A DNA stretch of 58,506 nt from Paramecium tetraurelia. Lineage: Eukaryota. The translations under genes were made by a program, and so were the position numbers. A model generated the notes under the pieces. It worked only from the letters and a program-made list of their open reading frames with translations. It did not search any database and was not told the DNA's origin. The stretch covers positions 248,001 to 306,506 of the forward strand of contig CT867990.1 in assembly GCA_000165425.1 (NCBI GenBank), read 5' to 3'. Shown piece by piece: positions 13,246 to 47,978 of the stretch; position 1 is the first letter of the stretch, and every line of letters begins with the position of its first letter.

Positions 13246-15112
13246 TCACTTAAAATTCCACTTCATCTTGATTAAATACTTCAATCTGATCTAAGCAATG
13301 TCATAAACAATGAATTCGTTGTACAATAAAGATGTCTACATAAATACGATTTTTTACATTAGGAACACCAGAAGGAGCTCCTTTTCCAATTGGCACTTTG
13401 ACTTCTGGCATGCCTGGGAATGGAATGTTTTCAGATTGGGGAGGCATTGTCTTTCCTCTTCCCCATGTGCTGTGCTTACCTTAAGGCAATTGGTTAGCAT
13501 AATAATCTGAATAGAACTTCTCATTTGGATTTCCCAAGGCCACATCACACAATAATATCAATCCTGTGTTGTTTTCTTTTGTGACTGCGCAATAATTTGC
13601 TGATTTTGAAACCATATCTGCAAAATATACACCCTATTTTGATGAATTTAACAATTACCTTTCCAAACATATATCCAGTGACTGGAGCCTCAGGGGGGGC
13701 AATCCTTAATCCTTAACTTAGAATACCCACAAAGTTTGTAAGTCTAGATCCATGCCATAGCAACATTCTATTGCCTAATTCTTTTTTGAATCTATTATCA
13801 TCTTGATCTTTCTGCAATTCAAAAACATCCAACACTTCTAATCCATATCCTCTATGTGTTTCGCAATGTGTATTTTATACAAATTACTTAATAGTTGAGA
13901 CTTTTTCATCAGTGGGTTCTAAGAATTGCATATTGATTCCTAATTTTTTGAAATTTTCGTCAATTGCATTGGTGTCCTCTGAATTTTCTTCTAAAATCTT
14001 AGTAGCAATTTAAATATGTTGAATTGCTTCGAGCATATCTAATTTATTTTTAACCATCTAAGGAGTTTCAATAACAGGAGCTCTTAAATATCCAAAATCA
14101 TGGGGGATCTGACTATAAAACTCACTTGAGAGTCTCTATAAGATCGATTATTCGGGAGTCTTTTTTTGCAATTCCTCCGATATCTATTTTAGAACATCAA
14201 ATCCTTTTTTAATAGTGGAAACTGCCAATTTCCCCAAAGGTGTTTTTTTAGCATCATAACCAATACTAATGATAAATAGATTAACAATACTCTTTCATCT
14301 AATTATTAATCATCTTCATATCAAAAATCAATCTAACCAGATCCTTTATCTTTGCATGTAATTTGCTTTTATTGTATGATTCCTTCTCCCTTTCCTCTCT
14401 GAGATTCTCCAACTTCTCCAATTCCTTAGGATCTTGTTCTCCACTATAATCCCTTTCCAACACTCTATATTCTCCTTTAACACTTTTCTATCTCACTTTA
14501 CTCTCATAGGCTTTTTTTGCAGATTCAGGTTTCAGGAATGATTGTTTGGCTGAAGAGCCTTCAACGCCAACTCTGCCCCATCTTGTGTACAAATAAAAAA
14601 AGTCTAAATATTAAGATGATTTCTTACCCTTATCCTTCTTTTTCAATAATTGAACAACATAAAACTTATTGTTATTATTATCATCCATAATATTGGTTTG
14701 ATTCATCATGCAATCGTAAATTTTACCATTTTCTTCATACACTACAAAATTCTCTTAATCATCAAAATATTCATCAACAGGTGCACTTTTAGTACTTTTA
14801 TTGATATTTGAAGTATCATCCTTCTATTTGCCATCCTAACCATTTTTTATTGGAGATGGAGAAGTTGATTTTTTAGAATCCTTTTTTGAGTTCTTCCTTG
14901 AAGGAACCTTCTTGGGTGAAACATTGGTTTTTCCATCCTTATCTTTCGATTGTGATACGTCTTTGACAGCTTTATCGATAACTTCTCTATAATTGTTATA
15001 TATGAGAATACTATTTTTTATCCTCTGCTTTATCAGTTTTTTTAGATCTCGTTGCTCTACCGGTTGGTGGAGGTGAACTAGTGACTTTTGGAGTTGATTT
15101 CTTGGGAGGCAT
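13246..15112 (-). CDS. Poly(ADP-ribose) polymerase, PARP2/3-type (basic N-terminus, WGR, regulatory and catalytic domains)
   Basis: [85 protein letters not shown] catalytic triad intact. Confidence 0.96.
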
Positions 15113-15274
15113 TGAAAAAGTAGATATCAAAATTAATAACCCTGATTGATTATGTTTGATATTTATAGAATGAAATCAGAATTAGTTCAGAATTAAATAT
15201 ATAAATATATTCGATCAGTAATTTTGCTTCTAAAAATAAAAATATCAAAATAAAGAGATTTCATATTTTTATTC

Positions 15275-17222: not shown

Positions 17223-19050
17223 ATGAATTAGGGAGAGCATCTTAACAAATATGAGGATGATCAAAAATTCACGGAAGGAGATCAAACGTTCATCAACGAG
17301 CAGACGGACGACGACAAACGATTCTCCAACACTGTGGTGGACAGACAGGAGTAGGGGGGATTGGAAGCTTTGTTGGTAAGTGTGAATGTATATTGAATTA
17401 GGAATTGGACAATCGAAATAAATAAGAGTTTTTGGGTTCGGAGGAGAGAAACATCTTCACGGAATTCATTGTTATCTGCCAGATCAGGAAGGATAAATAT
17501 CTGAGTGAACAGGATCCGCATCTTTAGTTTTTGATGGAGAAAGCAGTCTACAAGGGGGTACAAAAGATTCTCATTAAAGCCTAGAAGATCCAGGACAAGG
17601 AACAGTGGCAAGTATCATTGATTACGATATTAGAAAGAGCAATAACAATTGATGAGACTCTTCTATTCGGACATGAACATTGGTTTCATTACATCAACAG
17701 GGTAACTGAAATCAACAGTGTTCATCTATGTCCATCAATCTATAGCAAGTTGCTTGGACAATCGTCAGATAAATTTGAATTTTAATAAGGAAGATCTAAA
17801 AATCGTAGCCAACTATTTCTCAATTGATGAAAGGAACAAATCCAGCAAATCGAGTCCAGAGTTCACATCCCCTATATTGACTAAAGAGAAAACAGAAAGA
17901 GAGTAATTTAAACAAAATAGTGCAGGTTCAAAGACTATATCCCAGAATGAGGGTGAGATTGAAAATCAATTGAAAAGAAGTCTGCCTCTCTGCCATCAAA
18001 CCAATTGGCTCAAATAAGAGTTCATCAAGAAGGATTACTTTAAGAAGCAATTCCTCATCCTCCAAAAAACAAATGAAAATGAACTCAAATCTGGAGTCCA
18101 AATCTTTTTTGTTTATCGAATCAAAGATGATCAAATCTATGCAGTGAAGAAAGTATAATCAATTCAAGTCTATGTAGTCTTAATTAGCTTCAAATGTCAT
18201 ATCCTTTTTCGATGTCTTTTCAACAGTCAACCTATCAGAAATAACAAACGATCAAAGAAAAATCAGAGAAGCCAAAATTCTATCCAAACTCAACCATCCC
18301 AACGTTCTAACTCTCTACGATTGGTGGATCGAAGAAGAAGAATCAGGCTACTCCCTATTCTTGATGTCCGAATACTGCTCCTATCCTGGACTTAAACATC
18401 AAACCAACGACCTACTCAACTATGCCTATTATTATCTGAATCCCATGAACTGCAAAGAAAAGATAGAACAAATCAAAACAATCATGCTCTAAATCATGGA
18501 TGGACTAGAATACATACACAAACGAGGCATCGTTCATAGAGATCTGAAACCGGAGAACATCTTTGTCACTTACGGCATCGACTGTCAACTCCAAGTCATG
18601 TTGGCTGACTTCGATTAAGGAAAAGATGTTAGGGAATCCAAACTCTCCATCATCACAGATGAGAAACTCAACGACCAAGATCTCAATTCCATCAAATCAA
18701 GGAATACCATTAATTCTGGCACCAGCGGTTATGCTACTGTCAATTCGTAGATCAACAAGGAGTATGACAAAATGGATGAGTTCTATGCCTTAGGGGTCAC
18801 TCTTCTTCATTTGATATTGGCATTCCCTGGATAACCCAAAAATCGCAATCTATATACTAATACGTTTGCTATTAGTGACATTTCCGATGTCCTTCTCTTA
18901 TTCGACAGTTGGGCTGTAAAACTAGTTAAAAACAAACATCCAGAATTTAATTTCCAATAATATTTTCATCTTATGGAACTTGCTAAGGCACTTCTTGAAA
19001 AAAAGGTTAAGGAACATGATCACATCAGAAAAATCATTCAAAGTTGGTGA
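17223..19050 (+). CDS. Atypical eIF2-alpha-kinase-like protein kinase
   Basis: [67 protein letters not shown]; three introns. Confidence 0.82.
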
Positions 19051-19270: not shown

Positions 19271-20878
19271 ATGGGAACTTGTCAAGGAACCAAAAAATCT
19301 CAATAAGCAAAACCCGATCTTGAAATCCAAATCCCCAACAACGATCATCTTGACAATACCAAGAAATCCCAGATCTAGCAATCCAAAAGTGCTGGTTTAG
19401 AGAAAAAGACTCCCGTAACTTCATAAAGACAATCTTTAAAAAGTCAACCTTTTCAATTCAACAGTGCATCTAGCGATTAAGCTTTCAAAAGTAGATTTTC
19501 AACCCCCATGGTTGATCTAAAAAATCTTGAATAAGATCAGGTAAGATCATCTAAACATAAAACAACATTTAAAATGAATGCAACTGTAAAGAAAGCTGCT
19601 TTCTCCAAGTTTTATTCTGTTCAATAAAGCAAGAAAAATAGTTTCTCTAAAATACCTGGAGGGAGTATAGTAGTTCAACATAATATGACAGGAAAATTGC
19701 ACTATGCCGATATTTTGGAGAACACATAAGCTACCAAATTCTATGTTGATGAATTATTGAGATGTCAATTGGTAATATTATATAATAATTATGTTTTTAG
19801 CAACATCCAAATATCACGAATGTTATAGAAATTTTGGAGGACAAATCTTAATATATAGTTATCAAAGAATGTGCATAGGGAGTTCCAGTTTCATATTTTG
19901 AGCCTCCTGAGAAATAAGCTTCCATTTTAAAATAAATCATAGAGATAGTTTGTTACTTGCATAGTAAAAATTTAATACATGGAGCATTATGGCTGGGAGC
20001 TTTCGAAAGAAATAATGATTTAGTTAAATTGGTTGATATCTAGAGTATTTTCATAAGACATGATCCAACGAACCATGACGCTGAATATATGGCTCCAGAA
20101 TGCACTTTGGATTCCTCTATTTACACTAAAGAAAGAGACATCTGGGCTGTGGGAATGATAGCGCATAATCTCATGTGTGGTAGATATTTTAAAGTGTCAA
20201 ATGCTGTGGATATCTTGAAAGAGATCGAATAGATCAGAATCAAAAAGCATATACATCTTGAGAATTCCTCGATTAAAGAGTTGTTGGAAAAGTTCTTACA
20301 CATTTCTCCTGAGAAAAGAATCACTCTCTAAGAAGCATTAAAAGATTAATATCTACCTAAGACTAATGAGATGGAGGAATTTGATCAAATTTTGGAGAGA
20401 AATAAAAAATTAAAAAAAATAAGTGTTCTACAACAATGTTTATTGTTGTTATTTATAAATTAATTTGCAGAAGAATAGAAGGCCAAATTTTAGAAAGTCT
20501 TTTAGAACCTCGATGTAGATTATGATGGCAAAATTTCAAAGAATGAATGTTTAGCCTTGCATCCTGATAAAGGAGAGCAAATTAATTCTCTTTTTAATTT
20601 GCTCTCATTAAAGGATAAAATGGATTTTTAGGAGTTCTTAGTTATTTCAGTTGACAGGTCTTAGTTGCTAACTTCTCAAAACATTGAAATCATATTCAAT
20701 CTGTACGCAACAGTCAAAAAATATCTTCTTTTACAAACCTTAGTCAATATATACAAATCACGAGAAAATGAATTGCAAGAAGCCTTTAATGAATACGATC
20801 ATGCTCATGTACATTATATTCTCATTAATTTAGTTAAATTTTAAAAATTTCGAAACTCTATTGACAGATTTGTTGTGA
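19271..20878 (+). CDS. CDPK-like pseudokinase with EF-hand(s)
   Basis: MGTC acylation-type start; HPNI, YMAPE, DIWAVG, KRITLQEAL; EF-hand LDVDYDGKISKNE. Catalytic loop reads HGALWLG. Confidence 0.8.
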
Positions 20879-20957
20879 TCTTTATTAATAATAATATTTG
20901 TTTGCCTTTAAAAATAACATCAATTATCAAAATAATTATTTAATAATTAACCATCAA

Positions 20958-22954
20958 TCAACTATCAGCTACCATAAAAGAGTCCACTACTGCATAACCT
21001 GCTGCCACTCCTCCTTCATTATCTAAGTATCTTTTTGTCCTAACTAGATACCCCCCGACTTCATTCACCAATATATTCTCTCCCTCATTTATGAAATACC
21101 CAATAACACTAATTTCACTTATCACAGCTTAAATATCTAATTGACCCCTTCTCATCATGAATCCGATCCTAGGAATCGGTTTGATTCTTTCCATTACAAT
21201 AAACTCAGTTCTTTACTCAGGAGTCAATTTCAATAGTTCAGGAATGATTTAATCATCGTAATAATTGTTTCCACCTCCTTCTCTTTATGGTTTCAACACA
21301 TAATCATGAGGATTCTATTAGATCATTTCAATCAACTAATAATATTAAATGAGTCGAAATTACCTTCTCGTGTTAGTCCTCATGATCAAAACCCCAAATT
21401 TTACAATAATTCTCACTTATGAGTTTGGCTTCATCTTTGTTCAAAAACTTCTGGATTTAAGTTTCATCTAATAAAATTTGTTAAAGTTTCTTAAAATTCA
21501 CTAATTAAGTATTCAAACTTGGACATTTGAGTGCTTTGCTTAATTCAATCATTTCTCTTATACTCCAGCATTCCTGAAATGATATCAATAAATACTTCAT
21601 TTTCATATTGATCAAAAGTATATCCAGTTCTAAAATACACCAAAGCTACTTCTTATCCAAATGCTCTTAGAATTCCATTCTCTGAAGTGATGTTACCAAT
21701 TAGTCTTAAGAATGTAGTTCTTTTACTCAAAATTCCTAATTTTGCTAACCCTTTTTCAATGTATCTCTAATCATATATATTTCCTTCAAATTCTGCTGTT
21801 ATTATTAGAACAATAGCATTTTTATTATTGTACAGTTCATATGCTTTGTGTAATGCATCAACCATGATATCATGATTTAAGTCTTGTTTCACTTTAACTT
21901 TGTAGTTCTCTCTTATTTACTTATAATAAGAATCAAATAGAAGTGAATGGTACTTCTGAACTCTATCTGAAATAAACCCAAAACTTATTGCTATGCAATT
22001 ATATTCTACTTGCATCCATTGATTCAAAGAAGCATGGTGCAAAAAATCATTTCTCACGATGCAAATTGTATAAGGACATTTTGTTTGTGACTTTTCTACC
22101 TTGGCTTATATTGAAATCATTCTTCTTATGAATTCATCATGCTTTGCCAATCTTCCCAATATACCAGTGTACCATTCAAAATCCATACCCATTTTGGCAA
22201 CCACTTTTTACTATAAGATCGTTTTCTTCTTTATATCATTGATTATATCGTAGTTTATCTAATTAATAGATTAATATTATACATATAAGGGGAACAAGCT
22301 AACAGGGCAATTATCTGGAAATTATTTGCCATCCTCCTTGTATCTATACAATATTCCTTGACATTAGGCAAAATCATGGAAAGTTGGTAAGTTAGTCTAT
22401 ATGATTCCTTTCAAAATATTTTGAGCATTCTTTATATTGGGCGAAAAATCCTTCATCATAAAATCCACATTGAAGTAGTAATTCTACAAAACATTATTGG
22501 ATAAGACTTTTGCTAAGAATTAATACAAAATTTGATATTGATTATAGAGTATGTTGGGATACATATTGTTAACAATCTCCAATAGCTCTACTAATAGCAA
22601 GTCTGAGACTGATAGTAATTTCTCATGTTCTAAGTATTTGAATTGATTTTGGATAATATAATTTTAGATATTATGACAATGTTCATAGATTTCATTTTTC
22701 TTGTCAACTCCTTAATGAAAAGATGATTGAATAGTTTAATAAAATGGTTTGAGCTATTCTAATTTATTGATTGAATTTGTGAAATATTTGCTATAATTTT
22801 CAAGTTTTTCTGAAATCTCAACTAATTTTATTAATTATTCAAAAATGCAGATTTCTTGAACATATTCAAATTAAATGGGCAGATTGAGACTCTTGACGAT
22901 GCCGTGAAGAGGTTCTGATCCAAAGCGGTATTGATATGGCTAACTTTAAATCAT
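20958..22954 (-). CDS. GSS: Glutathione synthetase (eukaryotic type) with ~190-aa GST-like N-terminal extension
   Basis: CPVSLFP, IVRNDF, VEYNCIAISF, EGNIYDQRYIE, VYFRTGY, KPQREGGGNN, SEISVIG, GYLVRTK, EGGVAAGYAVVDS. The frame is open without a break from ATG 22954 into the GSS domain. Confidence 0.92.
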
Positions 22955-23227
22955 TAATTTATAAATAAAAAAATTAATATTCCTTATCATTTATTTTTAA
23001 ATCAAGAATTGAGAAGAAAAATTATAATTCTTATATTTTTATAATTAAATCTAAATTCTAAAATATCACTTAGAATTAAGTTCCTATGCGAGAAAACGAG
23101 TTGTTTCAATATTTTAATAACAAATTCTCCTATAATAAATTATAAAATTGTTAATTCAAACACAAGAGCCCTAAAATTCTCAGTAATTAAAAATATTTAA
23201 TATTATATGACGCAAAACTAATTAAAA

Positions 23228-24560
23228 ATGCTGCTCTGCGTATTTTAAGTAGCTTTTGTATCAGCTGGACTCTATTTCTATATATTCTGGAAGAAATTAG
23301 ATGATGTAAAGATTACATTGATAATATTCAGAAACCTTATTATGAATAGCTTGCTTTTGTGTATGGGCTAATTTTAGGATTCACAGAATTATTGGTTGCA
23401 ATAATTTTATTCATTCTAATGAAAACTCATGTTCAAATAACATCCCTGGGAATGATTGGTCGCTACATTCGATAGAACTGCTACAAGGAATATTACGCTC
23501 TGATAATAATTAATTTAGTATAGAATTTGATAATTTAGGCATTTCTGATATCCTTCAATATTATTTCAATAGTGGACTCAGAATCTGTTAGTTTCAACAC
23601 TATTTAATCGCTCCACTTCATAGCTGCCTACTATATTCAAGCAGTTCTCTTCACAATATTTTCAAATGACTTGCTAAAGCGAAGAGCCTTGATTCCGAAC
23701 GAGTTTATGTTCGAAAGAGAGGGAATCTTCCGATGCGCCTATGAAGTTCTCTATTACATAGTGTGTTTATTCATTGTCTTAAGTAGATATATATATATCA
23801 AAATATAGGTTACTTTTTGGTTACCCATTTCGAGAAATTGCCTGAACCAAATCAAACCTTGTGTCAATTAATCATATTCACCTTGCTCTACCAATTCTAT
23901 TCCATAACTAAGTTGGGTATTTTGATAAAAATATTTTTGATAATCACAACTACCAGGCTGCTCTACTCAGCAGCCAACTCTATTAACTAATTCAAGGATG
24001 ATTCTTAGAAAGGATATTAGATCACTTTGATAGTGATCACAATCATATTTTTAATCAGAATGGTGTAACAATGTTTAATAGGTGCAATAAGAGCAAGGGA
24101 GGAATACTTAAATTAGACTTAACATCAACCTCCCGATATTCTGAGTGCGTTGAATTTATTACCACCCAGAGACCCCTACATAAGACAATCGGCATAAGTA
24201 ATCAGTGAGGAGTAAATTGAGATGTTGCCTGTGTAAAAGTTTAAGATGGAATTTGAATTTGTGTGTTCGATATGTGACATGAATCTTCTAAAGAATGAGA
24301 TGGTGATGAAATTGAATTGCTCCCATATTTTCCATTCGGAATGTTTAAAGCCTTGGATTAGAATCAAGAACTCTTGTCCGAATTGCAGACAGCAGATACT
24401 TAGTTAATTCACTCAATAAAATTAGCACGATGAGATTCCTTAACATTTACATCAATAAATTCTACGCATTCAAGCTGAAGCTCCCCCTCCAATAAATGAA
24501 ATAAATTAACAATAACAAATAAGCGAGGTACCTCAAAGATAGATGGAAATACAAGAATGA
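23228..24560 (+). CDS. Transmembrane RING-H2 E3 ubiquitin ligase
   Basis: Hydrophobic N-terminal half; CSICDMNLLKNEMVMKLNCSHIFHSECLKPWIRIKNSCPNCR. Confidence 0.85.
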
Positions 24561-34226: not shown

Positions 34227-37063
34227 TCAATGAGCTGATTATTCCAACACCAATTTATCCTCTTCAGCATATTCTATATCCATGAATTAAAATTGCTAGG
34301 ATATATTTGATACATAATCCAGAGATCGATATTCACTCTTACTAATGTTGCTAATGAGATCTTCAAGAGATCTGATTGTAATGGGTTTAATGTATACTTC
34401 TCTCATTCCTGAATCTAATAGCCTATTTATTTCATCCTCCCCTGAAAACCCAGTAAGTCCAAATATTGGAATTGGGAGGAATACTTTTTATCTTTACAAA
34501 TTTATGTGATATATTTAGTAGCCTCTTCGCCATTCATTATTGGCATTTAATAATCCATTATTATACCTTTGTATCCTTTACATTTATGTTCTTGAAATTG
34601 TTCAAGCATTTTTTCTAATAGTTGGATGCAATGTCTACCATTTTCTGCCTTCACTACTTAGTGTTGTAATTTTTTTAGAAGAGATTCTAACACTATTAAA
34701 TTGTAAGGCTCATCATCAACAATCATAAAGGTATTTTCACATTGACATAAGATTTTTCCATGAATTTAAGTGACTGTTGACCAAGGACTAAGTTTCTAAT
34801 TGAAATTGTGATATGAATGTACAATTCCTTCATTTTCAACACTAGATTCCTTTATTATCAACTCACTTGAGAAATTTTCACCTGAAATTAATCGTATTTT
34901 TATATGCATCTAAACAATTGTACCCTTATCTTATTCTGAATCGATAGATAAGTAATTTAGATTATCATCTTTACCTGATAAATTTTTTATTAATTAATTT
35001 GAAGCACGCAATCCTAGCATCATACCAGTAGATGCGTCATTTGAGTTTCTGTCAACCTAAAAGTCTTCCCCATTAAGTAAAGATCGAATTTACTCTAATC
35101 TGTCCGCACTCATTCCTAAACCGTTGTCTTTCACCTCAATCAGATAAACATCTGCAAGATTGGTTGACAAATTTCCAATTGAAGAAAATTAACTGGCCAT
35201 CTTGTATTTGCTATATGTTCTACGTTATTTATTATTTGATGAATCATGATTAAATTCACTTCCACTCAGTCTCTGCTATTGAGGAGATTAAGAATTGGGA
35301 ATCTACAATTTTGAATGTCGATGAATTTGTATTTTGCTATCAGGAACTTAAATGTAACTATTAGTTTAATAACTATTGTTATTGTTAATGTTATTGTTAT
35401 TGCTATTGTTGTTGTTGCTATTACTATTGTTGTAGTTATTACTAATATCTTTTAGCAGCCTAATTTAAATTAATCCATCAGACTTACTAAATCTAATGCT
35501 ATTAGAAATAATATGAACGAGGATGCTTTGAAATCTCTCTGAATTCAACAATTCATAATTATTGGTCTGTATTTTATCCTCATATTTAATCTTGATATTT
35601 TTTAGTTCCGCTTCATCTTTGAATAGGTCTATCACTTCCTATATTAATATATTAATTCTAATTTTGTCTGATTTGACAGGCAATTGTCTTTCCCTTAACA
35701 GGTTATAATCTATTATGGATCCAATAATAAAATTTTATATTCTACAATTGTTAAAGGCAGCCTTTAAATATGTCTACACCTCTCTATCAAATTTTTGGTT
35801 ATAACTTTAAACCATCTAAATCATACCTTAAATAGCATTCAATCTAGTTCTTAATTCGTGGGAGATTGATCTTATTACTTTGCTTTTAAATTAATTCAAA
35901 TTCTTATAATAAATAGACTTTAGATTAGTTGATATATCATAAAGGTTAATTAAAGTTGCATGTTTATTATCCTCATATTACAAAAGTGTTTTCATCTTTA
36001 CTTCAATTACAACTTTTTATGATTCATCATAGACTTATTCTGGACGATCAATAAATTAGCATCTTAGGGTATATATTTTACCTTAAGTCTTTTTGTCTGT
36101 CTTAATTATATATTGAATTATTTAATTTAAGTTTAATTATTCATCATCCATATTATCAAGATTGAATTTGCTTGAATCTAATGGCAATTAATTTTTGACT
36201 TCTTCCATATTTGCAAACATTTAAGAAAAAAATAAATAAATCTCATCATAATTGTTCATAATCGATGGTTGAGTCTCAAATAGATAGTCCTATTTTACAG
36301 ACTTGGTTAGAATGGTTTTTGTCTTTGTATTTGACTTGTCTATCAATTTCTTCATATACCTATTCGAAAATAGCACTTGTTAGCAATCAGAATTTAATAT
36401 ACAAACCGCTGTTGGTATGCTTCTTAGAGATTATTCAGCGAAATGTTTTATTTTACTTAATCTCATTATTTGCTAATCCCAATAATAAACTAGTAGCAAA
36501 TTCAAAAACACAACATGGTATGTGAACAAACATTAGAATATAGTGAATTCGGTTTTATAACCTAAGTAAACGAAGAATTTAACGAGAATCATTAACCTTA
36601 GTTTGAAATTATTCATTGTTGCCATCACGATTAGCATTATTGTAAATATTAACAAGATCCCAATTACTCTTTATAAACTTTAATATTCCATCAACAATTG
36701 AGATAAATATAGCTGTAAAAGTGTTTCCATTACAATAAAGATAATTTGCGTAAGTGTTACTTTCTATTTTTTAGATAATTTTTGGATTATCCATCTATCA
36801 TATACTATCATTGCTAAAGGAAGCAACATAATTAAATAAGTATAAAGAGTGATTGTCTAACTATTATAAGATGCAAAGCCTTCAATATTTTTTATCATTA
36901 TCAATACAATACTGTAAAACAAATAGATTTTCATTATTGTCACAAACAGAGGCCAGAATTGAGAAATGATTAACTCATTCTGACAATCAATATAATTAGA
37001 GTCATTATAATCTTCGTAAATTTCTAATGCTTATCTTTTTTATTTTCTTAACCATACTAACAT
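34227..37063 (-). CDS. Hybrid membrane-bound histidine kinase (TM region, HisKA, HATPase, receiver)
   Basis: N-terminal hydrophobic helices; H-box SISHELRTRLNAI; N-box HIISNSIRFS; G1 VKDNGLGM; G2 MLGL; receiver IVDDEPYN, IMDYQMPIMNG, LTG, IKP. Confidence 0.92.
35373..35442 (-). repeat. Imperfect AAY trinucleotide repeat encoding an Asn-rich tract in the histidine kinase
   Basis: Translates SNNYNNSNSNNNNSNNNNINNNNS. Confidence 0.8.
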
Positions 37064-38844
37064 TGCTATTTAATATAAAACAACTATAAAATTATATATT
37101 AAATTAAATATTCTTTTTTTTTTCTTGAAATCATTGGAGCAGCTACTATAAATTAGGCACATCCTAAAATCAAGATAAATTTGTATTCTTTACAGTGTTT
37201 TGAGTCAAAATTGTAATGCCACTACAATCAATCATTTCTCATGCAATCAATGAAACTAATATTTTGTAAAAATTCAATTTAAGCTTATACCTAGAATATA
37301 TTGGTATGAGGAAATTTCAATAAAATCCAACATTTATATAATATATTACAATATATATATGATCTTAACTTGAATAAAATAATTAAAAGTTGTTATATTC
37401 ATTAGATTTATTATAACAAGTTATAAATTGAATAGAAAATATATTTTTTCAACGCGAAATATATCACCTTCCAATAAACTTCCAAAATATATCTACAACT
37501 TAAATATTAATTTTAATTAATCTAAAATTACTTTAATTTCAAATATTTGAAATAAATAACATTAATCAAAGCATCAAAATAACGATATTTCTACTCAATT
37601 AAAAGACCTCATGTGAAAATTATACTATCCATAATTTTCAGATTAAACTAAGCCCCATTAATAAAAATTATTAGAATTTTGATAAGGGATTCAACCCCAC
37701 AAAACCAACCTAATTTTTAGTAAATAAAACTACTCAACTCAAAATATGCACTAGTAGGAAAAAAATAGAAAAAATTTCAAAGTTGCTTGTGAAGTTGAAA
37801 GAAATAAAATTGGTTCAAACAATTAACAATTCTTCTGATAACGTATTTTATGCCTTTCAAAATACAACTGATGGAAGTGTTGTTTAATAAGATTAGTGAA
37901 ATTGAGATGACATATAAAATGGTTATGCAGAAAATGGTAAGAACGTTGAATATTATTTAACTTATGTAGAAACTTGCTTATATTCGAATAGGAATTATTG
38001 TAAATATTCAATAATGGTATTTTCATAAAAAATTTCAATTTATTATTAATGAGGCGCATAAATTTTCTAATTTAATCGCTTTCTAAAATCATAAATCAAG
38101 CCTCAAATGTTATAAAATCGCGAGTACAATTTTAAGATTGGATATGAAAAAATTCTTCCTTAGTTACCAATTTGAGTGCCCATTTGAGTGAATAAATATA
38201 TTTTAGAGTTGGATCTATTTAATATTCAAAAGAAGTTTTGTGGATAAATCTCTGAACTTCTTTTAAGGTAATTCTGATTGGAAATTTATTGAATTACTTG
38301 GTTGCATCCTTGGGCTTCTTTTATTGTCAAAAACTTCAAAAAATGATGGTCTGTTTAGATTTGCTTATAATTTTCTTAACCAAACATTAAGTTTAGGATA
38401 ATATAAGAGGACAGAAAATAAATTTCTCTGAAATAGCCCAATCTAAGCCCTAATATTGCTATCTACTATGAGGACAACTTGCTTCATTAATAATTTTCCT
38501 TATTTTTTCTCCTTTTATATTCTAATTATTATCTAGAGAGTGTTATAGCTTATCTAGTCCAAAATCTAATTAGTCTATTAATTTGAAATTTTTTATCAAT
38601 TTAGTAACATCTTATATTTATAAGAAGTATCTATAGGTTAGTGAAGAGAAAGAGAAGATATCAAACATTGAGTATGTAATTTGAATGATTCACAGAAGTG
38701 ATGTCCAAATCGTTAAACTTAGAACATTTAATAAAGTGTCTTTTTATTATATTAAAGCCAAAAATTGAGATTATGTATTAAAAATATACTAATCAATGTT
38801 GATTTTTCAAATATTTCATAATTCAAATAAATGCAGTGAATAAA

Positions 38845-41544: not shown

Positions 41545-44500
41545 ATGACGAACAAATTCTTCCTTCTTACTATTTTATTGAAAATAACTGATTCCCAGTG
41601 GCTTCTTTAACATAGCTATGCTTCAAAAGATACTTTACAATTTAATATGCAAATAAAAAATACTAACTGCTAGTACACAGAATATTTAACAAATCAATAT
41701 CAACCTGCTAATTATATTAATTGCACGTCCTCTCCTAAAAGCTATATAACATTAGATTAACTAAATCGAACAGTTTCAAATTGTGATTATAAAACTTAAA
41801 CAATTTATTGCGATTATATGTGTCTAATTTCATTTGATTTATATTATTAGGGTATTTGGGCGAATGAATAATTAGAATTTAAATTTTATAATCACAGCTA
41901 TACCTTCGCTCATACATCACTTCATGAATACAAGTTAAATACAGGATTTTGTGACTCGATATAATATGAAGTTAAATAAATAAACATAACTCATACGTAA
42001 AAGTCAATGTTAAACTTCACATTTTCAGCAGCATTAAGTAATGGTTAAGTATCTTTAAAAAATCTTTTTATCCTCAATTATTAATATAATTGCTATCCTA
42101 AATGTAGTGAATGCTCAGGTCCTGAATATAATTAATGTTAGAAGTGCTTTTATGGAACTCAACAAAATAACATTTGTCCTTCTTGTCCTTTTGGTTAATA
42201 CTATGTAAAATATAAAGGCTGCCAATTTAAAAAAAGTTTCATTTAGCCTTTATGCTTCAACGATTTTTGTAATGAAATTTCATGTAATTTTCAATAATAA
42301 TTTAAGTTTCCATATAATATTATACTAATTTATCATATTATCCAGAGCGAATTTTATGGTCCATAATTTATGATCATCAAAATTAGAATGTTCACCCTTC
42401 AGTATTATGGTGGAATTAATTTTTTTATGGAATATTTAAAATGGCTTTAGGAATATCAAGATATTTTGATAAAATTAAATCAAATGTTGGGTATTCCCTT
42501 GGATTTTTGATAAAAGTAATTTTTTTTAATGATTTAAAACCTGATAGTGGAATTCATTTTTAGTTCAATAAAACTTATTATGCATCAATATATAATACAA
42601 GCGAAGGAATTAAATTGCATAATTTTACTTCTATCTAATGTATTCTTTAATCTGCTTATCATGAGTATACTTCCAATTAGTTATGTGTAATTTATGGCTA
42701 CTTTGATATTCCTTAGTATCCATTTTTATTTTCAGCAATCGGAAATCTGACGTAAATTTTATTATAAATTAGGGATCCTTAATCTGGTTGGGGCATGGTT
42801 GGTGTCGAAATAACAGCAGATTATTGCACTGATAACTGTTTAGCCTGTGATATATCACAAAAATGTACAACTTGTGTGAGCCCTTACTTTTTGTATCGAA
42901 ATGGTACTTGTATCAAGGAATGCAATGATTTGTATCAATAAAATAATGGAACATATTGTAAGGATTTCGATGATGAAACACCATGTAATTATTAAAATAT
43001 ATATTCCATAGATTCTGAATTAATAATAAGAGAAAACATAAATTACACTTATTAGTACGACTCCTCATACAAACTTATCAAATAAACTGGAGATAATTTC
43101 TTGAAAGGAGAAGATTTATATTATTCATATTGGAATGGATTTCTTATTTTTGGAGGCTCTTTTATATGGGCTTAAGCATAATTTGAAAGAATTCATTCAA
43201 TTGATAGACCACATCATAGTATTTCAATAGCATTTCACATTTTGTATGGATCTGAATTTCCAGATAATAGTGAATTTATATTTACAATAGATTAAAATAG
43301 TCCAAATATTAAGAAGAGGATAAATGCAAAACAAAATAGCGATGGAACCTATTTTGATTTGGTTTCATAAAGCATAACACATTAATCTAGTACTATTAAT
43401 ATTACTTTTGAATGTAAGGGTTTAAACGAACCCATAAAAGCATTTTGTGGCTTGTATAACTTCTACTTAGCAGTTCATTATTGTAAACCTTATTGCAAAA
43501 AATGTATAGATTAAAAAGATTGTTAAGAATGGAATGGAACATATAATTTAACTTAAATTTAATTTTCTTAATAAGATTGTAGTACGAATTAATATTTTGA
43601 TGTTCATCAATCCTTATGTTTAAATTGCACTTCTTCATGTCTAACTTGTAAATCAGCTATTGTTTGCTTATCATGCAAAAGTAGGTATTAATTAACAAAC
43701 TTTGGATGTTTTTGTGCTAAAAATTAATATGAAGAAACTGATGAATGTAAAACTTGTCCACCCTAGTGCAATTAATGTTTAAGTGACACCTTTTGTATCG
43801 AATGTATCGATAGGACTAAAATGAGCCTAATAAATGGGTAATGTAATTGCATTAATGGCTACACTTTGAATGCAGCCAGTAATTTATGTGAAAATAATAC
43901 CCTTACCCTTTAATGCGGCTTATAATGTTAGAATTGTATTTCTGGAAAGTGTTTTGAATGTAGTGAAAATTGGTATGTAGATCCTATCGAGTATATTTGT
44001 AAATAAAAATGTGGGGATTTTGTTAAATTAGAGTCTGAGAAGTGTGAAAGCAGTTTTGTATTGCCTTATAGAGGATGTATTAATTGTGAACCAAATTGTC
44101 AATCATCATGTTTCAATTGTGGTACAGGTGAAAAAGGTTGTTTAGAATGTGTGAAAGGTTATTCATTAATCGACAATTTATGTTATTCTATCTGTGGCGA
44201 CTAGATTTTAACGGAAGAAGAATAATGTGATGATGGAAACCTAATATATGGTGATGGGTGTCATTTTTGTCAATACAGTTGTTCAGATTCATGTTAAAAT
44301 TGTATTGATGGAATATGTTTTAATTATAAATTAGATCATCCATTAACAAAAATCCAATGTGATCCAGTATTAGGAAAAGAAATGTTTAATAATTCATCAT
44401 TATGTTATTTAATAGACAATTTATACCTATTGAGTGAGATCTATAATTCCAATTTTGGTTGTGATTTAAATTGCCAAAATTGTTTTTTTTAAATCTGCTA

Positions 44501-47500
44501 CAGATGTGACCATGACTATATACTTTCAGTAGATTCTAGGAAATGTATTTAAAAAACTTCGCTTTTTGATTATAATTAAGAACATAGTTTAATAAAAATT
44601 GGTAATGTGTGCTTAAAATGTGCTGATTATGCTTATTTTGATGTGCTTGAATAAATTTGTAAACCGAATCTATCCAATATTAAAAAGTGTCAAATTTAGA
44701 TGTTATTATCACCAGATCAATTTTGCAACTAATGCTTCAAAAATTGTTTGAAATGTTCCTACCATAGTTGTATTTTATGCATGGAAGGATATCATACTGA
44801 TTATTAATCTAATTGTATCTCTGATTGTGAAGATGGGATTCAGACAATTAACGAAAAATGCGAAATTAATGAACAAACCTGTTTGAGTTGTGAATTCTAA
44901 ATATCAAAATATTGCTAATATTAACCTTTAGAATTATGTTTATAGTGCAAACATGGATATTATTATAATCTTCTAATCTAAGACTGTGAATCTATTTGTG
45001 GAGATGGAATTATAGCAGAAGACGAAGATTGTGAAATATAACACTAATATATGAGAAACGGATGCCAATAATGTAAATATACCTTTGATAATGGTTGTAA
45101 AGAATACAAAGATGGGCTTTGTAATTTATGCATTGAAGGTTATATATTAATTAATAGTTCATGTTACATTTATGGGTTTGATATTTCAAACAATTTATAG
45201 TATTATGACTTTGTTAGAGAGAGTAATTATGAATTAGAACAGTATTGCGCTTCTAGAAATAGTAATTATTTGGCTTTTGCATTTAACTAATGTTTACCGA
45301 TTTGTGGAGATGGTATAATAACTCATGACGAAGAATGTGAAGATGAGTATTCACAATAATCATATGGATGCTTTAATTGTAGATATTCATGTCCTATTAA
45401 TTGTTTATAATGCGAATTTGGTTAATGTAATAAATGTATTGATGGCTTCTAAATATTAGAAAATATATGTTATCCTAAATGTAGAGATTAACTTATTAAA
45501 TATGAAAAGTAATGTGACGATGGAAATATGATACCATTTGATGGATGTTATAAATGCTAAAATAGTTGTCAAATAGAGTGTCTAATCTGTTTACAAGCCA
45601 AATGTGTTTAATGTATTTCAGGATGGAATCTAATTGATGGAAAATGCTACTAGAAATGTGGTGATGGCAAATTAGCAATAATATCTGAGGAATAATGTGA
45701 CAATCCATTAGATTTAAATTGTAAAAATTGTAAATTAAATTAATGTATGCCATATTGCGATTTTTGTGATAACCTATAATAATGCTAAGCTTGCTAAGTC
45801 TCTTTCTAACTGGTTAATAATAGTTGCATAACTATATGTGGTGATGGTATTATAACTTTGGGGTATGAGTAATGTGATGATGGAAATGAAATTGAGTTTG
45901 ATGGATGCCATAATTGTGAATTTTCATGTTCGATAGGATGCATGATTTGCTAAGAAAATAATGTTTGCTTAAAATGTAATGAAGAGGAGTCTTTTACTTT
46001 GGATCACAAAACTAAAAAATGTGTATTTTTTTAAATTTAAGAAAATGAAGTTCCTAATAATAATAGTGAAGTTACAAATGAGGAAGAAGAAGATATTAAA
46101 ATTATTTAAAATGAAGAATTTGCACATGAGGAGGATGATTAAATTCCATAAGGTGATGATGATTAATTATCAGTTTAGAATTGTGGGAATGGTAAATTGT
46201 AATATAGCTTAGAAGAAGAATGTGACGATGGAAATACACTTGGATCAGATGGATGTTCTCAATTTTGTACTATTGAGTCTTCATTTAAGTGTAAGAATTT
46301 TGAAAATGAAAAGAGTGAATGCTCATTTATACAAGCTCCTGAATTTTACTTAAATTTCATATCAACTACTTTGAATTCAATTCAAATTGTAGATCTAACT
46401 TTTTCTTAAGAGATTCGATTACAACAATAGAGTATGATTGAAGATTTAGCCGATTTTTCAATTGAACCTTCTTCTAAATGTTAAATAACAGTTATTCCTC
46501 TAATTAATTTCACAACTGAATTAAATATGTCGCATTATCAATTTTCTATATAATTCTATTAAAGCATAAACCGCCCTCTATTTAAACTAAAATTTAAATA
46601 AAATTCATTAGTCAACTTAGATAATATTCCTCTCGTGAGCTTAGAAAAAAGTATTTTTATTGGGAATTCTTTTGTTTTATCAGAGTAAACGAAAAAAAAA
46701 CTAAGTTAGATCATTTTACTGAATGATATAGTTATGTACACTTTGATAAGCATTTCAGTGCTAGCGTTGCTAATAGGGAATCCAATAATGTTTTTGAATC
46801 TCTTAAATCTACTTTAATCTTTTTCTTATCTTAGATATGTATAATATCAATTTCCTCCTCATTTTTCATAATTTCTTGAAACATACTCTAAGATATCTTT
46901 ACAAATATTTTTAGACTACTTATAAATTGATTAAATATTAACTTAACTAAATGGAGGATAACTTCCTTCTTCAAACAAATCAGCTTCATAAACAAATCAA
47001 ACGGAATAGCAAAACTAAGTATTTTTAATTAATGCTAAAAGCTGTTATATTTCATTCTTCACTTCATATCTTACCTACATAATATATAAAATAATAACAT
47101 CAAAATAGATAGATAATTATCTCAAAAAGGTTTTGGAATTAAAATTTGAAAACATCAAATATTTACAAATAATAAGGTTATTCTAAAAAAAAATTCAATA
47201 GCATTGTGTCAAATTGAAACATTAGTTTTTCTCTAAAGATATTTTTCAAGTTTATCTTACAATACTTCATTAATTATTATTTAGTGCATTTATGCAATTT
47301 CCAAACTATAGTTTTCAATCATTTTTTGAAGCATTTAATTCACTCAATTCTTTATTGGCTTTGGGATTAATAATGGTGGTTAATTTTAAATCGCTTGATA
47401 TAACATCATAAAAAATAAAAAATAAAAGAAAATGGAAGTATTTTTTTGAGGAATCAAAATCAGAATTTTGGGCTGCAAATTTCAAATCATTTTCAATCTA

Positions 47501-47978
47501 TAGAATTAACGCCTATATTTTTGTAGTCGTATTTTTGATCAATTGGCCTGAAGTCTAATCTATTTTTCTCTCTATTCAATCATTAGTCTACTTGATATAT
47601 CTATGTACAGTAAAGCCATTAATATCAAATAATGAATATATTAAATTAATATTTAGAGAGTTTCTCTTTCTATCAACAGTTGGCTCATTTTTAACCTATA
47701 GTTTTAATTAAGATGAAGAACAGCTTTTAACGTGGGGTTGGATCCATATTTCAATGCTCACAACTATATTAGGGACAAGTTTATTTGTAGATATGATTGA
47801 ATTCATTGGTAAGCTTCATTCAAATTATCTGAAATAGAAAATAAAGAAGGAGATATTATAAGAGAAAAATACTTTAAGTTCTCCATTGTAGCTTATTGAT
47901 CGTTAAAATATGTAGAATCTTAACAAAGCATTGTCAGATGTTGAATTTAATCTGGATTAGATTAATTAATAAATTTGA
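41545..47978 (+). CDS. Large Cys-rich surface protein (~2,100 aa): signal peptide, furin-like CxxC repeats, Myxococcus-type CGDG..E.CDDGN repeats, C-terminal multi-pass membrane domain
   Basis: MTNKFFLLTILLKITDSQW...; ICGDQILTEEEQCDDGNLIYGDGC, ICGDGIIAEDEDCE, CGNGKLQYSLEEECDDGNTLGSDGCS; several hydrophobic helices near the end (..WGWIHISMLTTILG). Putative introns ~42284-42306, 42752-42772, 42985-43011. No TGA found in the parts translated (most of the gene). Confidence 0.85.

What the first reader, a model, noticed from the sequence alone, without database searches (positions are those of the whole stretch)
22430..22954. Glutathione synthetase fused to a degenerate GST-like N-terminal domain
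Seen: about 190 codons read in frame, with no intron or TGA, ahead of the normal GSS start region. Seen: the segment begins YQYRFGSEPLHGIVKSLNLPIQFEYV and ends KYLEHEKLLSVSDLLLVELLEIVNNMYPNILYNQYQILYQFLAKVLSNNVLQNYY. Known: cytosolic GSTs start Y..RG.AEPIRLLL...EFE and end YL.G..LT/SxxD.LL.ELL...FPLL..F..RI...I..YL, where S/TxxD is the N-capping box. Inference: a GST-fold module on the enzyme that makes GSH could serve product sensing, feedback, channelling or dimerisation. I do not know of this architecture being described.
Basis: partly seen in the sequence, partly recalled or inferred. Interest (0 to 1): 0.8.

Follow-up and report, generated by a model that had tools for sequence, protein, structure and literature searches.

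The report
Paramecium glutathione synthetase with GST-like head
The glutathione-making enzyme of Paramecium carries, on the same spliced messenger RNA, a shrunken and probably inactive copy of a glutathione-transferase fold at its front end, an arrangement I could not find described and whose job is still unknown.

Summary
The window is Paramecium tetraurelia macronuclear DNA read with TAA/TAG = Gln. On the minus strand, 22954..20958 encodes a 640-aa glutathione synthetase (GSS) in four exons. It is identical to the public protein GSPATT00028262001. Residues 1-165 (22954..22460) lie ahead of a normal-length GSS core.

Two assembled RNA contigs span the whole gene with the three tiny introns removed and none inside the extension. 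They stop before the upstream ATG, so it is one transcript.

The extension is most likely a degenerate GST fold:
- Pfam GST_C_3 is hit below threshold by 4 of 4 full-length Paramecium N-termini.
- AlphaFold models, including one built from Paramecium sequences only, match almost only GSTs (VIA-align top Z 11.8 and 9.4).
- A sister ciliate-like clade of about 660-aa GSS proteins has an N-terminal extension whose profile hits mu-class GSTs at E = 2.8e-6.

The beta3-beta4-alpha3 glutathione-binding region is missing and no catalytic residue is conserved, so I read it as non-catalytic, perhaps an assembly or ligand-binding module. That function is inferred only.

RNA depth drops 3-7 fold at the domain boundary, so a short isoform is possible. 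This is a new variant of a known kind, of moderate interest.

The parts
20958..22954 (-). Glutathione synthetase gene, start ATG to stop TGA. Four exons, 640 aa, ciliate code.
   Evidence: The spliced translation is identical to P0129 = P. tetraurelia GSPATT00028262001. RNA contigs X3 (20904-22974) and X12 (20926-22971) span it.
22460..22954 (-). N-terminal extension, residues 1-165: degenerate GST-fold domain.
   Evidence: Pfam GST_C_3 E = 0.0032, 18.1 bits against a cut-off of 21.6. AlphaFold models have pLDDT about 72 and pTM 0.72. VIA-align top hits are GSTs, Z up to 11.8 and 9.4. Foldseek top rows are all GSTs, E 0.015-0.16.
22910..22930 (-). Conserved N-terminal motif Y-R-x-G-S-E-P (residues 9-15), leading into predicted helix alpha1 (residues 14-22).
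   Evidence: R10, E14 and P15 are invariant across all 9 rows of alignment A4. In the combined profile this stretch aligns to residues 11-32 of the mu-class GST 4q5n.
22478..22699 (-). Helical GST C-domain-like part (residues 86-159) that matches Pfam GST_C_3 profile positions 28-100 of 104.
   Evidence: Predicted helices 86-102, 116-131, 135-139, 141-151 and 153-168.
22601..22612 (-). S-V-S-D (residues 115-118), placed immediately at the start of predicted helix 116-131.
   Evidence: Invariant in the 5 Paramecium species. Helix boundaries. The motif's meaning is recalled, not tested.
22454..22459 (-). In-frame Met pair M166-M167 at the domain boundary. This is a possible start of a 475-aa short isoform.
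   Evidence: Sequence. RNA depth steps down 3-7 fold just upstream of it. Not shown to be used.
22259..22282 (-). Intron 1, 24 nt, GT..AG, in frame and without a stop.
   Evidence: Left out in RNA contigs X3 and X12. Absent from the orthologous proteins.
21574..21595 (-). Intron 2, 22 nt.
21336..21363 (-). Intron 3, 28 nt.
   Evidence: My first guess (21315-21336) was wrong.
20958..22459 (-). GSS core, residues 166-640 (introns included in the span): ATP-grasp glutathione synthetase.
   Evidence: For the 98%-identical P0003, Pfam gives PF03917 E = 8.8e-82 and PF03199 E = 8.9e-24. The window exons score 8.5e-25, 2.3e-06 and 4.2e-38.

Best explanation
This is the Paramecium tetraurelia glutathione synthetase gene. 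Its product is a normal eukaryotic ATP-grasp GSS (residues 166-640) preceded by a 165-residue domain. That domain descends from a cytosolic GST, most like the mu, sigma and alpha classes, and has been cut down. The helical C-domain (alpha4-alpha8, with the S-x-x-D cap before alpha6) is kept. Of the thioredoxin-like N-domain only alpha1, a vestigial beta2 and alpha2 remain. The beta3-beta4-alpha3 segment that holds glutathione in real GSTs is gone. The fusion is old: a sister clade of GSS proteins of about 660 aa carries a more GST-like extension at the same place.

Shown: the gene model, the single spliced transcript, conservation across at least 5 Paramecium species, and the GST-like predicted fold.

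Inferred: the domain is not a transferase. I propose it works as the non-catalytic GST-like domains of eEF1B-gamma and of aminoacyl-tRNA synthetases do, as a protein-protein assembly or ligand-holding module. It could hold the two N-termini of the GSS dimer together, or tether GSS to a GST-fold partner. My odds are about 0.85 that it is a GST-derived fold on one polypeptide with GSS, about 0.8 that it is catalytically dead, and about 0.4 for the assembly-module mechanism specifically.
For: Gene and transcript:
- The spliced translation is identical to P0129.
- RNA contigs of 1997 and 1972 nt cover 20904-22974 and 20926-22971 with exactly the three introns removed.
- Stranded reads lie on one strand only, up to 22951.

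Conservation:
- There are 640-aa orthologues in P. octaurelia, primaurelia, pentaurelia and sonneborni.
- The N-domain is 98.2, 88.5, 87.3 and 74.5% identical; the core is 98.3, 96.6, 96.4 and 92.6% identical.
- The fragments P0006 (71% identity) and P0007/P0128 (40%) show that the N-terminus persists in more distant relatives.

GST signal in Paramecium itself:
- GST_C_3 is hit by 4 of 6 members of A3, that is all 4 full-length ones, with best E = 0.0018.
- The model from the Paramecium-only alignment (pLDDT 71.7, pTM 0.72) gives VIA-align Z 6.8-9.4 over 132-151 aligned residues. 48 of the 50 listed entries are titled GST or GST-like. All listed Foldseek rows are GSTs.
- The model from A4 gives Z 8.8-11.8, with 73 chains at Z >= 8.

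Sister clade:
- P0010, P0125 and P0126 (661, 661 and 658 aa) fall with Paramecium, Ichthyophthirius and P0008 in an 11-row clade with SH-aLRT 100 on the GSS-core tree.
- Their N-terminal profile hits 21 PDB sequences, all GSTs. The best is 4q5q_A, E = 2.8e-6, query 7-180 against chain 10-202 of 219.
- GST_C_3 is hit by 3 of 3 members (best E = 4.3e-5) and GST_C by 3 of 3.

Link between the two groups:
- MAFFT and hhalign alignments are colinear (6-159 against 5-176).
- The combined profile hits 116 PDB sequences. The 60 shown are GSTs, GST fusions or the GST-like eEF1-epsilon-1, with best E = 9.3e-5.

Degeneracy:
- The domain is 165 aa, against the 196-243-residue free-standing GST chains matched.
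- DSSP of both models shows almost no strands.
- Residues 6-8 vary among Paramecium sequences.
Against: No single test reaches a conventional significance threshold for the Paramecium domain alone.
- Pfam scores of 17.8-18.1 bits are below the 21.6-bit cut-off.
- phmmer and the A3 profile against the PDB found no GST: 3 unrelated hits each, E 0.26-1.5.
- Foldseek found 0 matches at E <= 0.001.
- VIA-align Z of 9.4-11.8 is under the tool's own caution mark of about 13 for helical proteins.
- The ESM Atlas model of the protein gave no GST neighbour (TM <= 0.35).
- Single-sequence phmmer over 1.84 billion representatives found only two short fragments and no GST.

Direct comparison of the Paramecium and P0010-group extensions is weak.
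- BLASTP best E = 0.12.
- hhalign local E = 0.049 with probability 1%, and global alignment gave nothing.
- In HMM-against-shuffle controls, 3 to 147 of 2000 shuffles reached the real score in one direction and 65 to 507 of 2000 in the other.

Other weaknesses:
- Model confidence is only moderate, and residues 1-12 are below pLDDT 50.
- RNA depth over the extension is 3.4-6.6 times lower than over the core, so the long form may be the minor product.
- Nothing here tests binding or activity.
Confidence: 0.6

Rival explanations
1. The extension is a lineage-specific helical domain with no descent from GSTs. On this view the GST likeness comes from a common helical arrangement, a few chance motifs and AlphaFold's memory of a very abundant fold.
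For: All Paramecium-only sequence tests are sub-threshold or negative. Foldseek E-values are 0.015-0.16. VIA-align Z is below the tool's helical caution mark. The ESM Atlas gave no GST neighbour. Paramecium against P0010-group comparisons are not significant.
Against: The top 50 fold matches are almost exclusively GST-family in two separate models, covering residues about 6-165. The only Pfam family hit by more than one member is a GST C-domain, in the right register (profile positions 28-100 of 104). The equivalent extension of the sister clade is a significant GST match. Adding the Paramecium rows to that profile widens the GST hit list from 21 to 116.
Confidence: 0.12
2. The domain is an active, if unusual, GST or thiol transferase. 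The protein would then be a bifunctional enzyme that makes glutathione and uses it on the spot.
For: The fold is GST-like. A tyrosine (Y9) next to invariant R10 is kept in all 6 Paramecium-type rows and in 2 of 3 P0010-group rows. In the P0010 group, Ser/Cys/Cys occupy position 5, which by my recalled register of the mu-class catalytic tyrosine is the catalytic column.
Against: About 35-50 residues of the GSH-binding half are missing, and both models lack the beta-sheet. Residues 6-8 are variable within Paramecium. The domain evolves about 3 times faster than the core. No GST_N-type Pfam hit appeared at E <= 10.
Confidence: 0.07
3. The main product is a 475-aa canonical GSS translated from M166 on a shorter mRNA with an internal start site. 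On this view the long GST-like form is a minor or conditional isoform, and the extension is a regulated add-on rather than a fixed part of the enzyme.
For: In two stranded oligo-dT runs, mean depth is 18.6 and 11.2 over the core bins (21280-22419) against 2.8 and 3.3 over 22496-22951. The step falls at 22420-22500, just upstream of the ATG pair at 22454-22459. GC content explains little of it (Spearman 0.38 and 0.45).
Against: Oligo-dT libraries have 3' bias, and depth already halves at 21280. No pile-up of read ends was listed near 22480 (table 6, with one row not shown). Full-length spliced contigs were assembled in two other runs. The extension stays an open frame and is 75-98% identical across species. 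All 5 public gene models are 640 aa.
Confidence: 0.25

Closest known systems
Eukaryotic glutathione synthetase (Pfam PF03917 GSH_synth_ATP + PF03199 GSH_synthase; for example the 466-aa Blepharisma stoltei protein P0011)
   Same: Residues 166-640 match both Pfam families end to end. On the tree they group with other ciliate GSS proteins. The length of the core is canonical.
   Different: It carries 165 extra N-terminal residues. Most of the 120 listed relatives are 385-580 aa and have no such domain, and the heterotrich Blepharisma protein has none.
Cytosolic GSTs of the mu, sigma and alpha classes (PDB 4q5q, 4q5n, 2wb9, 3fr3, 1tdi)
   Same: The overall predicted fold matches over about 135-150 residues. 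The helical C-domain matches Pfam GST_C_3 in register. The alpha1 motif and the S-x-x-D cap are placed as in GSTs.
   Different: It is about 35-50 residues shorter. The beta3-beta4-alpha3 glutathione-binding segment and the beta-sheet are missing from the models. No conserved catalytic residue is seen. Scores are below the Pfam cut-off. It is fused to another enzyme instead of standing free.
Non-catalytic GST-like domains of eEF1B-gamma, EPRS/AIMP2/AIMP3 and yeast GluRS-Arc1p (PDB 1nhy, 5dqs, 5a1n, 2hra, 4bl7)
   Same: It is a GST fold without evident catalytic residues, attached to an enzyme of another family. These entries appear among the fold and profile hits: Z 9.3-10.0 for model 1 and 7.0-7.6 for model 2, and eEF1-epsilon-1 at E = 0.05.
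   Different: They do not score better than enzymatic GSTs, so no specific kinship is shown. The partner enzyme here is GSS, not a translation component. Partner binding was not tested here.
GSS proteins of 658-661 aa from unnamed environmental assemblies (P0010, P0125, P0126)
   Same: They have the same architecture and length. Their GSS cores fall in the same SH-aLRT-100 clade. Their N-terminal extension is at the same position and aligns colinearly with the Paramecium one.
   Different: Their extension is 200 aa and recognisably GST (E = 2.8e-6 against 4q5q). It is only 14-17% identical to the Paramecium domain, and the direct comparison is not significant.
Bifunctional GshF (gamma-glutamylcysteine ligase fused to glutathione synthetase) of some bacteria
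   Same: It is another fusion that adds a glutathione-related module to a glutathione synthetase. It is named in the abstract of PMC4574134, seen only in the search listing.
   Different: The fused module there is the preceding pathway enzyme and is catalytic. Here it is a GST-fold remnant. There is no sequence relation between the two, and this comparison was not tested here.

Membership tests
Eukaryotic glutathione synthetase (PF03917 / PF03199) | Matches to both Pfam models above their gathering scores | tested here: met
   For P0003 (98% identical), PF03917 scores 275 bits against a cut-off of 25, and PF03199 scores 84.5 bits against 20.9. The window exons score 87.8, 27.1 and 131.5 bits for PF03917.
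Eukaryotic glutathione synthetase (PF03917 / PF03199) | ATP-dependent ligation of glycine to gamma-glutamylcysteine | not testable with these tools
   This needs an enzyme assay. Only homology is shown.
Cytosolic GST superfamily | Sequence match to a Pfam GST domain above the gathering score | tested here: not met
   GST_C_3 scores 17.8-18.1 bits against a cut-off of 21.6, E = 0.0018-0.0039. No GST_N-type family appeared at E <= 10.
Cytosolic GST superfamily | All-helical C-domain (alpha4-alpha8) of the GST fold | tested here: met
   This holds in predicted models only. Helices 61-81, 86-102, 116-131, 135-151 and 153-168 are predicted. VIA-align Z is 9.4 and 11.8 to GSTs over about 140 residues, and nearly all of the top 50 entries are GST-family. 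The Pfam alignment is in register.
Cytosolic GST superfamily | Complete thioredoxin-like N-domain (beta-alpha-beta-alpha-beta-beta-alpha) | tested here: not met
   DSSP of both models shows helices 14-22 and 38-49 and only 2-residue strand traces. There is no beta1, beta3 or beta4. The domain is 165 aa, against the 196-243-residue free-standing GST chains matched.
Cytosolic GST superfamily | Conserved catalytic Tyr, Ser or Cys ahead of alpha1 | tested here: inconclusive
   Residues 6-8 vary among Paramecium-type rows, while Y9 is conserved but lies in a different register. The register of the catalytic column is recalled, not given by a tool, and residues 1-12 are below pLDDT 50.
Cytosolic GST superfamily | Glutathione binding and transferase activity | not testable with these tools
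   This needs GSH-affinity and CDNB assays.
Non-catalytic GST-like assembly domains (eEF1B-gamma, aaRS/AIMP type) | GST fold lacking catalytic residues, fused to another protein | tested here: inconclusive
   The fold and the fusion are met. Loss of catalysis is inferred from the missing segment, not measured.
Non-catalytic GST-like assembly domains (eEF1B-gamma, aaRS/AIMP type) | Mediates specific protein-protein assembly through the GST-like domain | not testable with these tools
   No partner is known. This needs AP-MS, SEC-MALS or pull-downs.

The most novel reading that the evidence does not exclude
The GST-fold head could be a regulatory glutathione or glutathione-conjugate sensor, or a dock for GSTs. 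It would have been kept for a long time in oligohymenophorean-type ciliates. It would couple GSS output to glutathione demand, by allosteric feedback or by channelling to transferases. Paramecium might switch it on or off by choosing between two transcription starts, giving a 640-aa and a 475-aa isoform.
Probability: 0.12. Interest if true: 0.7.

Novelty: new variant of a known kind. Interest (0 to 1): 0.45.

Why it matters
GST-fold domains are known as add-ons to translation factors and tRNA synthetases, where they build complexes. Finding one on the enzyme that makes glutathione would add a new partner class. It also raises a testable idea: glutathione synthesis in ciliates may be physically or allosterically tied to glutathione use.

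It also matters for annotation. The public Paramecium proteins are labelled only as glutathione synthase, with 165 residues unexplained. A related unnamed clade shows the less decayed state of the same fusion, so the decay of a GST into a scaffold can be followed along a lineage. Paramecium allows RNAi by feeding and GFP tagging, so the question is experimentally reachable.

Tried and rejected
- Intron 3: my first guess (21315-21336) was wrong. Comparison with orthologues and RNA gave 21336-21363.
- Upstream ATG at 22990 as the start: rejected, because the RNA contigs end at 22971-22974.
- phmmer of the N-domain against the PDB and the Paramecium-only profile against the PDB: only unrelated hits, E 0.26-1.5.
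- Exhaustive phmmer over 1.84 billion representatives: 2 short fragments and no full-length or GST hit.
- ESM Atlas: no usable feature hit, and structure neighbours at TM <= 0.35 with no GST among them.
- Two metagenome scans meant to extend the distant fragments P0007/P0128: 587 and 506 pattern matches, none confirmed.
- The genome search 'own': no genome is held for this window. Paralogues, stand-alone Paramecium GSTs and a whole-genome-duplication twin of the gene could therefore not be looked for.
- The look-up of sequencing runs: no RNA holder is listed on record. The runs X3 and X12 are RNA only by the tool's guess. Their contigs lack the three introns, which is why I treat them as transcripts.
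- Complex prediction, homodimer of the N-domain: no verdict (score 0.00 against a mark of 0.32, and the alignment was not used). It says nothing either way.
- N-terminal 169 aa of P0122, a 612-aa relative with a different extension: no Pfam hit at E <= 1 and no PDB hit at E <= 1.
- Literature: six searches found no paper on a GST-like domain on GSS, nor any paper naming the gene id. For PMC7232342 I read only four matched passages, which were irrelevant. Subscription journals and bioRxiv supplements were not searchable.
- Earlier scan notes: nothing on this locus.
- Antisense gene under the extension: rejected. Read pairs with the first mate on the minus strand reach at most depth 1.
Full report
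**What is there.** The window has about 30% G+C. It reads as long open frames only when TAA and TAG are taken as glutamine (NCBI table 6). On the minus strand a 506-codon frame runs 23065..21545.

Homology search with the first 185 residues found 640-aa proteins named glutathione synthase in P. octaurelia, P. pentaurelia and P. sonneborni (98, 88 and 76% identity). A cluster look-up added P. primaurelia and the P. tetraurelia protein GSPATT00028262001 / XP_001424625.1 (P0129).

Using these proteins as a guide I built the following gene model:
- exons 22954-22283, 22258-21596, 21573-21364 and 21335-20958;
- introns of 24, 22 and 28 nt.

Its translation is identical to P0129. The window is therefore P. 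tetraurelia macronuclear DNA, and the gene is already in public databases.

**One transcript.** I laid four runs on 20900-23150.
- Two runs kept as assembled contigs (X3, X12; RNA by the tool's guess) each give one contig, of 1997 and 1972 nt. They cover 20904-22974 and 20926-22971 and have exactly three gaps, of 28, 22 and 24 nt, at the intron positions. I therefore read them as spliced mRNA. There is no gap inside 22283-22954.
- These contigs end 17-20 nt upstream of the ATG at 22954 and short of the further in-frame ATG at 22990. The start is therefore 22954.
- Two raw, stranded, oligo-dT RNA runs (X21, X22; 688 and 448 reads laid) cover the gene on one strand only, up to 22951 and not beyond.

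**The core is an ordinary GSS.** Pfam PF03917 and PF03199 match strongly. On a maximum-likelihood tree of 40 GSS cores (466 columns, quick search, SH-aLRT only) an 11-row clade has support 100. It holds the five Paramecium proteins, Ichthyophthirius, the environmental proteins P0008, P0010, P0125 and P0126, and the long-branch P0122. The heterotrich Blepharisma protein (466 aa, no extension) falls elsewhere.

**Is the extension GST-like?** Evidence from Paramecium alone is consistent but individually weak.
- Pfam GST_C_3 is the best family for the window's N-domain: E = 0.0032, 18.1 bits against a cut-off of 21.6, residues 86-159 on profile positions 28-100 of 104.
- It is hit by 4 of the 6 members of alignment A3, which are the four full-length ones. 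The two fragments are too short to reach that region.
- phmmer and the A3 profile against PDB sequences found no GST.
- An exhaustive phmmer over 1.84 billion representatives found only two short fragments.
- The ESM Atlas gave nothing useful.

Structure prediction is more telling.
- The model from alignment A4 (9 rows; pLDDT 72.2, pTM 0.72) gave Foldseek rows that are all GSTs or Ure2, though at E 0.015-0.07, with none at E <= 0.001.
- For the same model, VIA-align against 48,161 representative chains gave 73 chains at Z >= 8. The top 50 entries have Z 8.8-11.8, 136-152 aligned residues and rmsd 3.4-4.5 A.
- All of those 50 are titled GST or GST-like, except the dynein entry 4ai6. It aligned over chain residues 6-198, which I recall to be a GST tag.

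A4 contains three outside sequences that are themselves GST-like, so I repeated the fold with the Paramecium-only alignment A3 (pLDDT 71.7, pTM 0.72).
- VIA-align again listed almost only GST-family entries: Z 6.8-9.4, 10 chains at Z >= 8, with the exceptions 4ai6 and the trypanosome mitoribosome chain 6yxx_EO.
- Foldseek again listed only GSTs, at E 0.019-0.16.
- These Z values are below the tool's caution mark for helical proteins. The weight therefore lies in the exclusiveness of the hit list and the coverage of the whole domain.

**The sister clade.** P0010, P0125 and P0126 (661, 661 and 658 aa) have a 200-residue N-terminal extension.
- Its three-sequence profile hits 21 PDB sequences at E <= 10, all GSTs and mostly mu class. 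The best is 4q5q_A: E = 2.8e-6, query 7-180 on chain 10-202 of 219.
- All three members hit Pfam GST_C_3 (best E = 4.3e-5) and GST_C.
- P0008 is cut by its contig end, but it begins with a stretch resembling the tail of that extension (by eye).

**Are the two extensions the same domain?** Direct tests are weak.
- BLASTP gives E = 0.12.
- hhalign local gives E = 0.049 at 1% probability, though colinear over 148 columns; global alignment gives nothing.
- In HMM-against-shuffle controls, 3 to 147 of 2000 shuffles equal the real score for the Paramecium rows, and 65 to 507 of 2000 in the reverse direction.

In favour of one domain:
- Both extensions occupy the same position on orthologous enzymes.
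- MAFFT aligns them colinearly, with R10, E14 and P15 invariant.
- The combined profile hits 116 PDB sequences, against 21 for the sister clade alone. The 60 shown are GSTs, GST fusion constructs or the GST-like eEF1-epsilon-1, with best E = 9.3e-5.
- That profile matches in two stretches, the alpha1 motif and the C-domain.

I put the odds that the Paramecium head is a GST derivative at about 0.85.

**How degenerate it is.**
- The domain has 165 residues, against the 196-243-residue free-standing GST chains among the matches.
- Both models have helices at 14-22 and 38-49, then helices from 61 onward, and only traces of strand.
- The conserved S-V-S-D (115-118) sits at the start of helix 116-131.
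- By elimination, beta1 is disordered (pLDDT < 50 for residues 1-12) and the beta3-beta4-alpha3 segment is missing. From general knowledge of GSTs, that segment carries the cis-proline loop and the gamma-glutamyl binding site.
- Residues 6-8, where a catalytic residue would be expected, vary within Paramecium.
- The P0010 group is also about 19 residues short in this region in the HMMER alignment.
- The head evolves faster than the core but is clearly conserved. Against P. sonneborni it is 74.5% identical (123 of 165), and the core is 92.6% identical (440 of 475).

**Mechanism.** This part is inferred, not shown. With the glutathione site gone and the domain still conserved, I take it to be a non-catalytic GST-fold module. 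The known precedents are the GST-like domains of eEF1B-gamma, EPRS/AIMP2/AIMP3 and GluRS-Arc1p, which build complexes. They appear in my hit lists but score no better than enzymes do. The module could pair the two N-termini of the GSS dimer, tether GSS to a GST-fold partner, or hold a hydrophobic ligand. Nothing here discriminates among these.

**An open point.** In both raw RNA runs, depth over 22496-22951 averages 2.8 and 3.3, against 18.6 and 11.2 over 21280-22419. The step falls at the domain boundary, just upstream of the in-frame Met pair M166-M167 (22454-22459), which would start a 475-aa enzyme. GC content explains little of it. It may be 3' bias, or it may be an internal start site. 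No pile-up of read ends was listed there. I give a short isoform about 0.25.

**Context and novelty.** The neighbouring genes are a kinase with EF-hands (plus strand, ending near the GSS 3' end) and a membrane RING-H2 protein upstream. No GST gene lies among the 18 long frames I scanned, out of 53 frames of at least 200 codons.

Six literature searches found no description of a GST-like domain on GSS. The precomputed Pfam labels of the public proteins list only the two GSS families. It is an analogous case that I did not check.

**Verdict.** The feature is real. It is a new variant of a known kind, a non-catalytic GST-fold add-on with a new partner enzyme. It is of moderate interest.

Noticed in passing
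window 22420-22951 (minus strand): RNA depth falls 3.4-6.6 fold at the boundary between the GST-like head and the GSS core. The drop is next to an in-frame Met pair (22454-22459) that would give a 475-aa enzyme. This may be an internal transcription start or 3' bias.
   Followed up: partly
window 22259-22282 (minus strand): A 24-nt intron is in frame and has no TGA. Unspliced reading adds 8 residues without breaking the frame. This is easy to miss when reading sequence alone.
   Followed up: yes
window 21008: C>G is seen in 7 of 44 reads of RNA run X21 and in 1 of 31 reads of X22. It could be a strain or allele difference, a paralogue, or an error.
   Followed up: no
P0122 (612 aa, unnamed assembly), residues 1-169: A long-branch member of the same GSS clade carries a different N-terminal extension of about 170 aa. 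It has no Pfam hit (E <= 1) and no PDB hit (E <= 1).
   Followed up: partly
P0012 (Rozella, 659 aa), P0080 (1090 aa), P0112 (851 aa), P0057 (925 aa): Other long GSS entries carry unrelated extra Pfam domains: ribosomal S17e, actin and PF17003, and COQ6-type monooxygenase. P0057 has 925 aa with no extra family found. They may be merged gene models rather than true fusions.
   Followed up: no
window 19753-21144 (+) and 18148-19050 (+): There are protein kinase frames here, the first with EF-hand motifs (CDPK-like). Its stop-to-stop frame overlaps the last GSS exon on the other strand, and the true 3' end was not resolved.
   Followed up: no
window 23745-24560 (+): A RING-H2 zinc-finger protein with hydrophobic N-terminal stretches lies divergent from the GSS gene. 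The intergenic space is about 250-300 nt if its start is near 23230.
   Followed up: no
window 13301-15126 (-), 34403-37204 (-), 42276-47978 (+): Three other genes were seen: a PARP-like gene (WGR, regulatory and catalytic domains), a hybrid histidine kinase with a receiver domain, and a 1900-codon frame with 8 DUF4215 cysteine-rich repeats.
   Followed up: no
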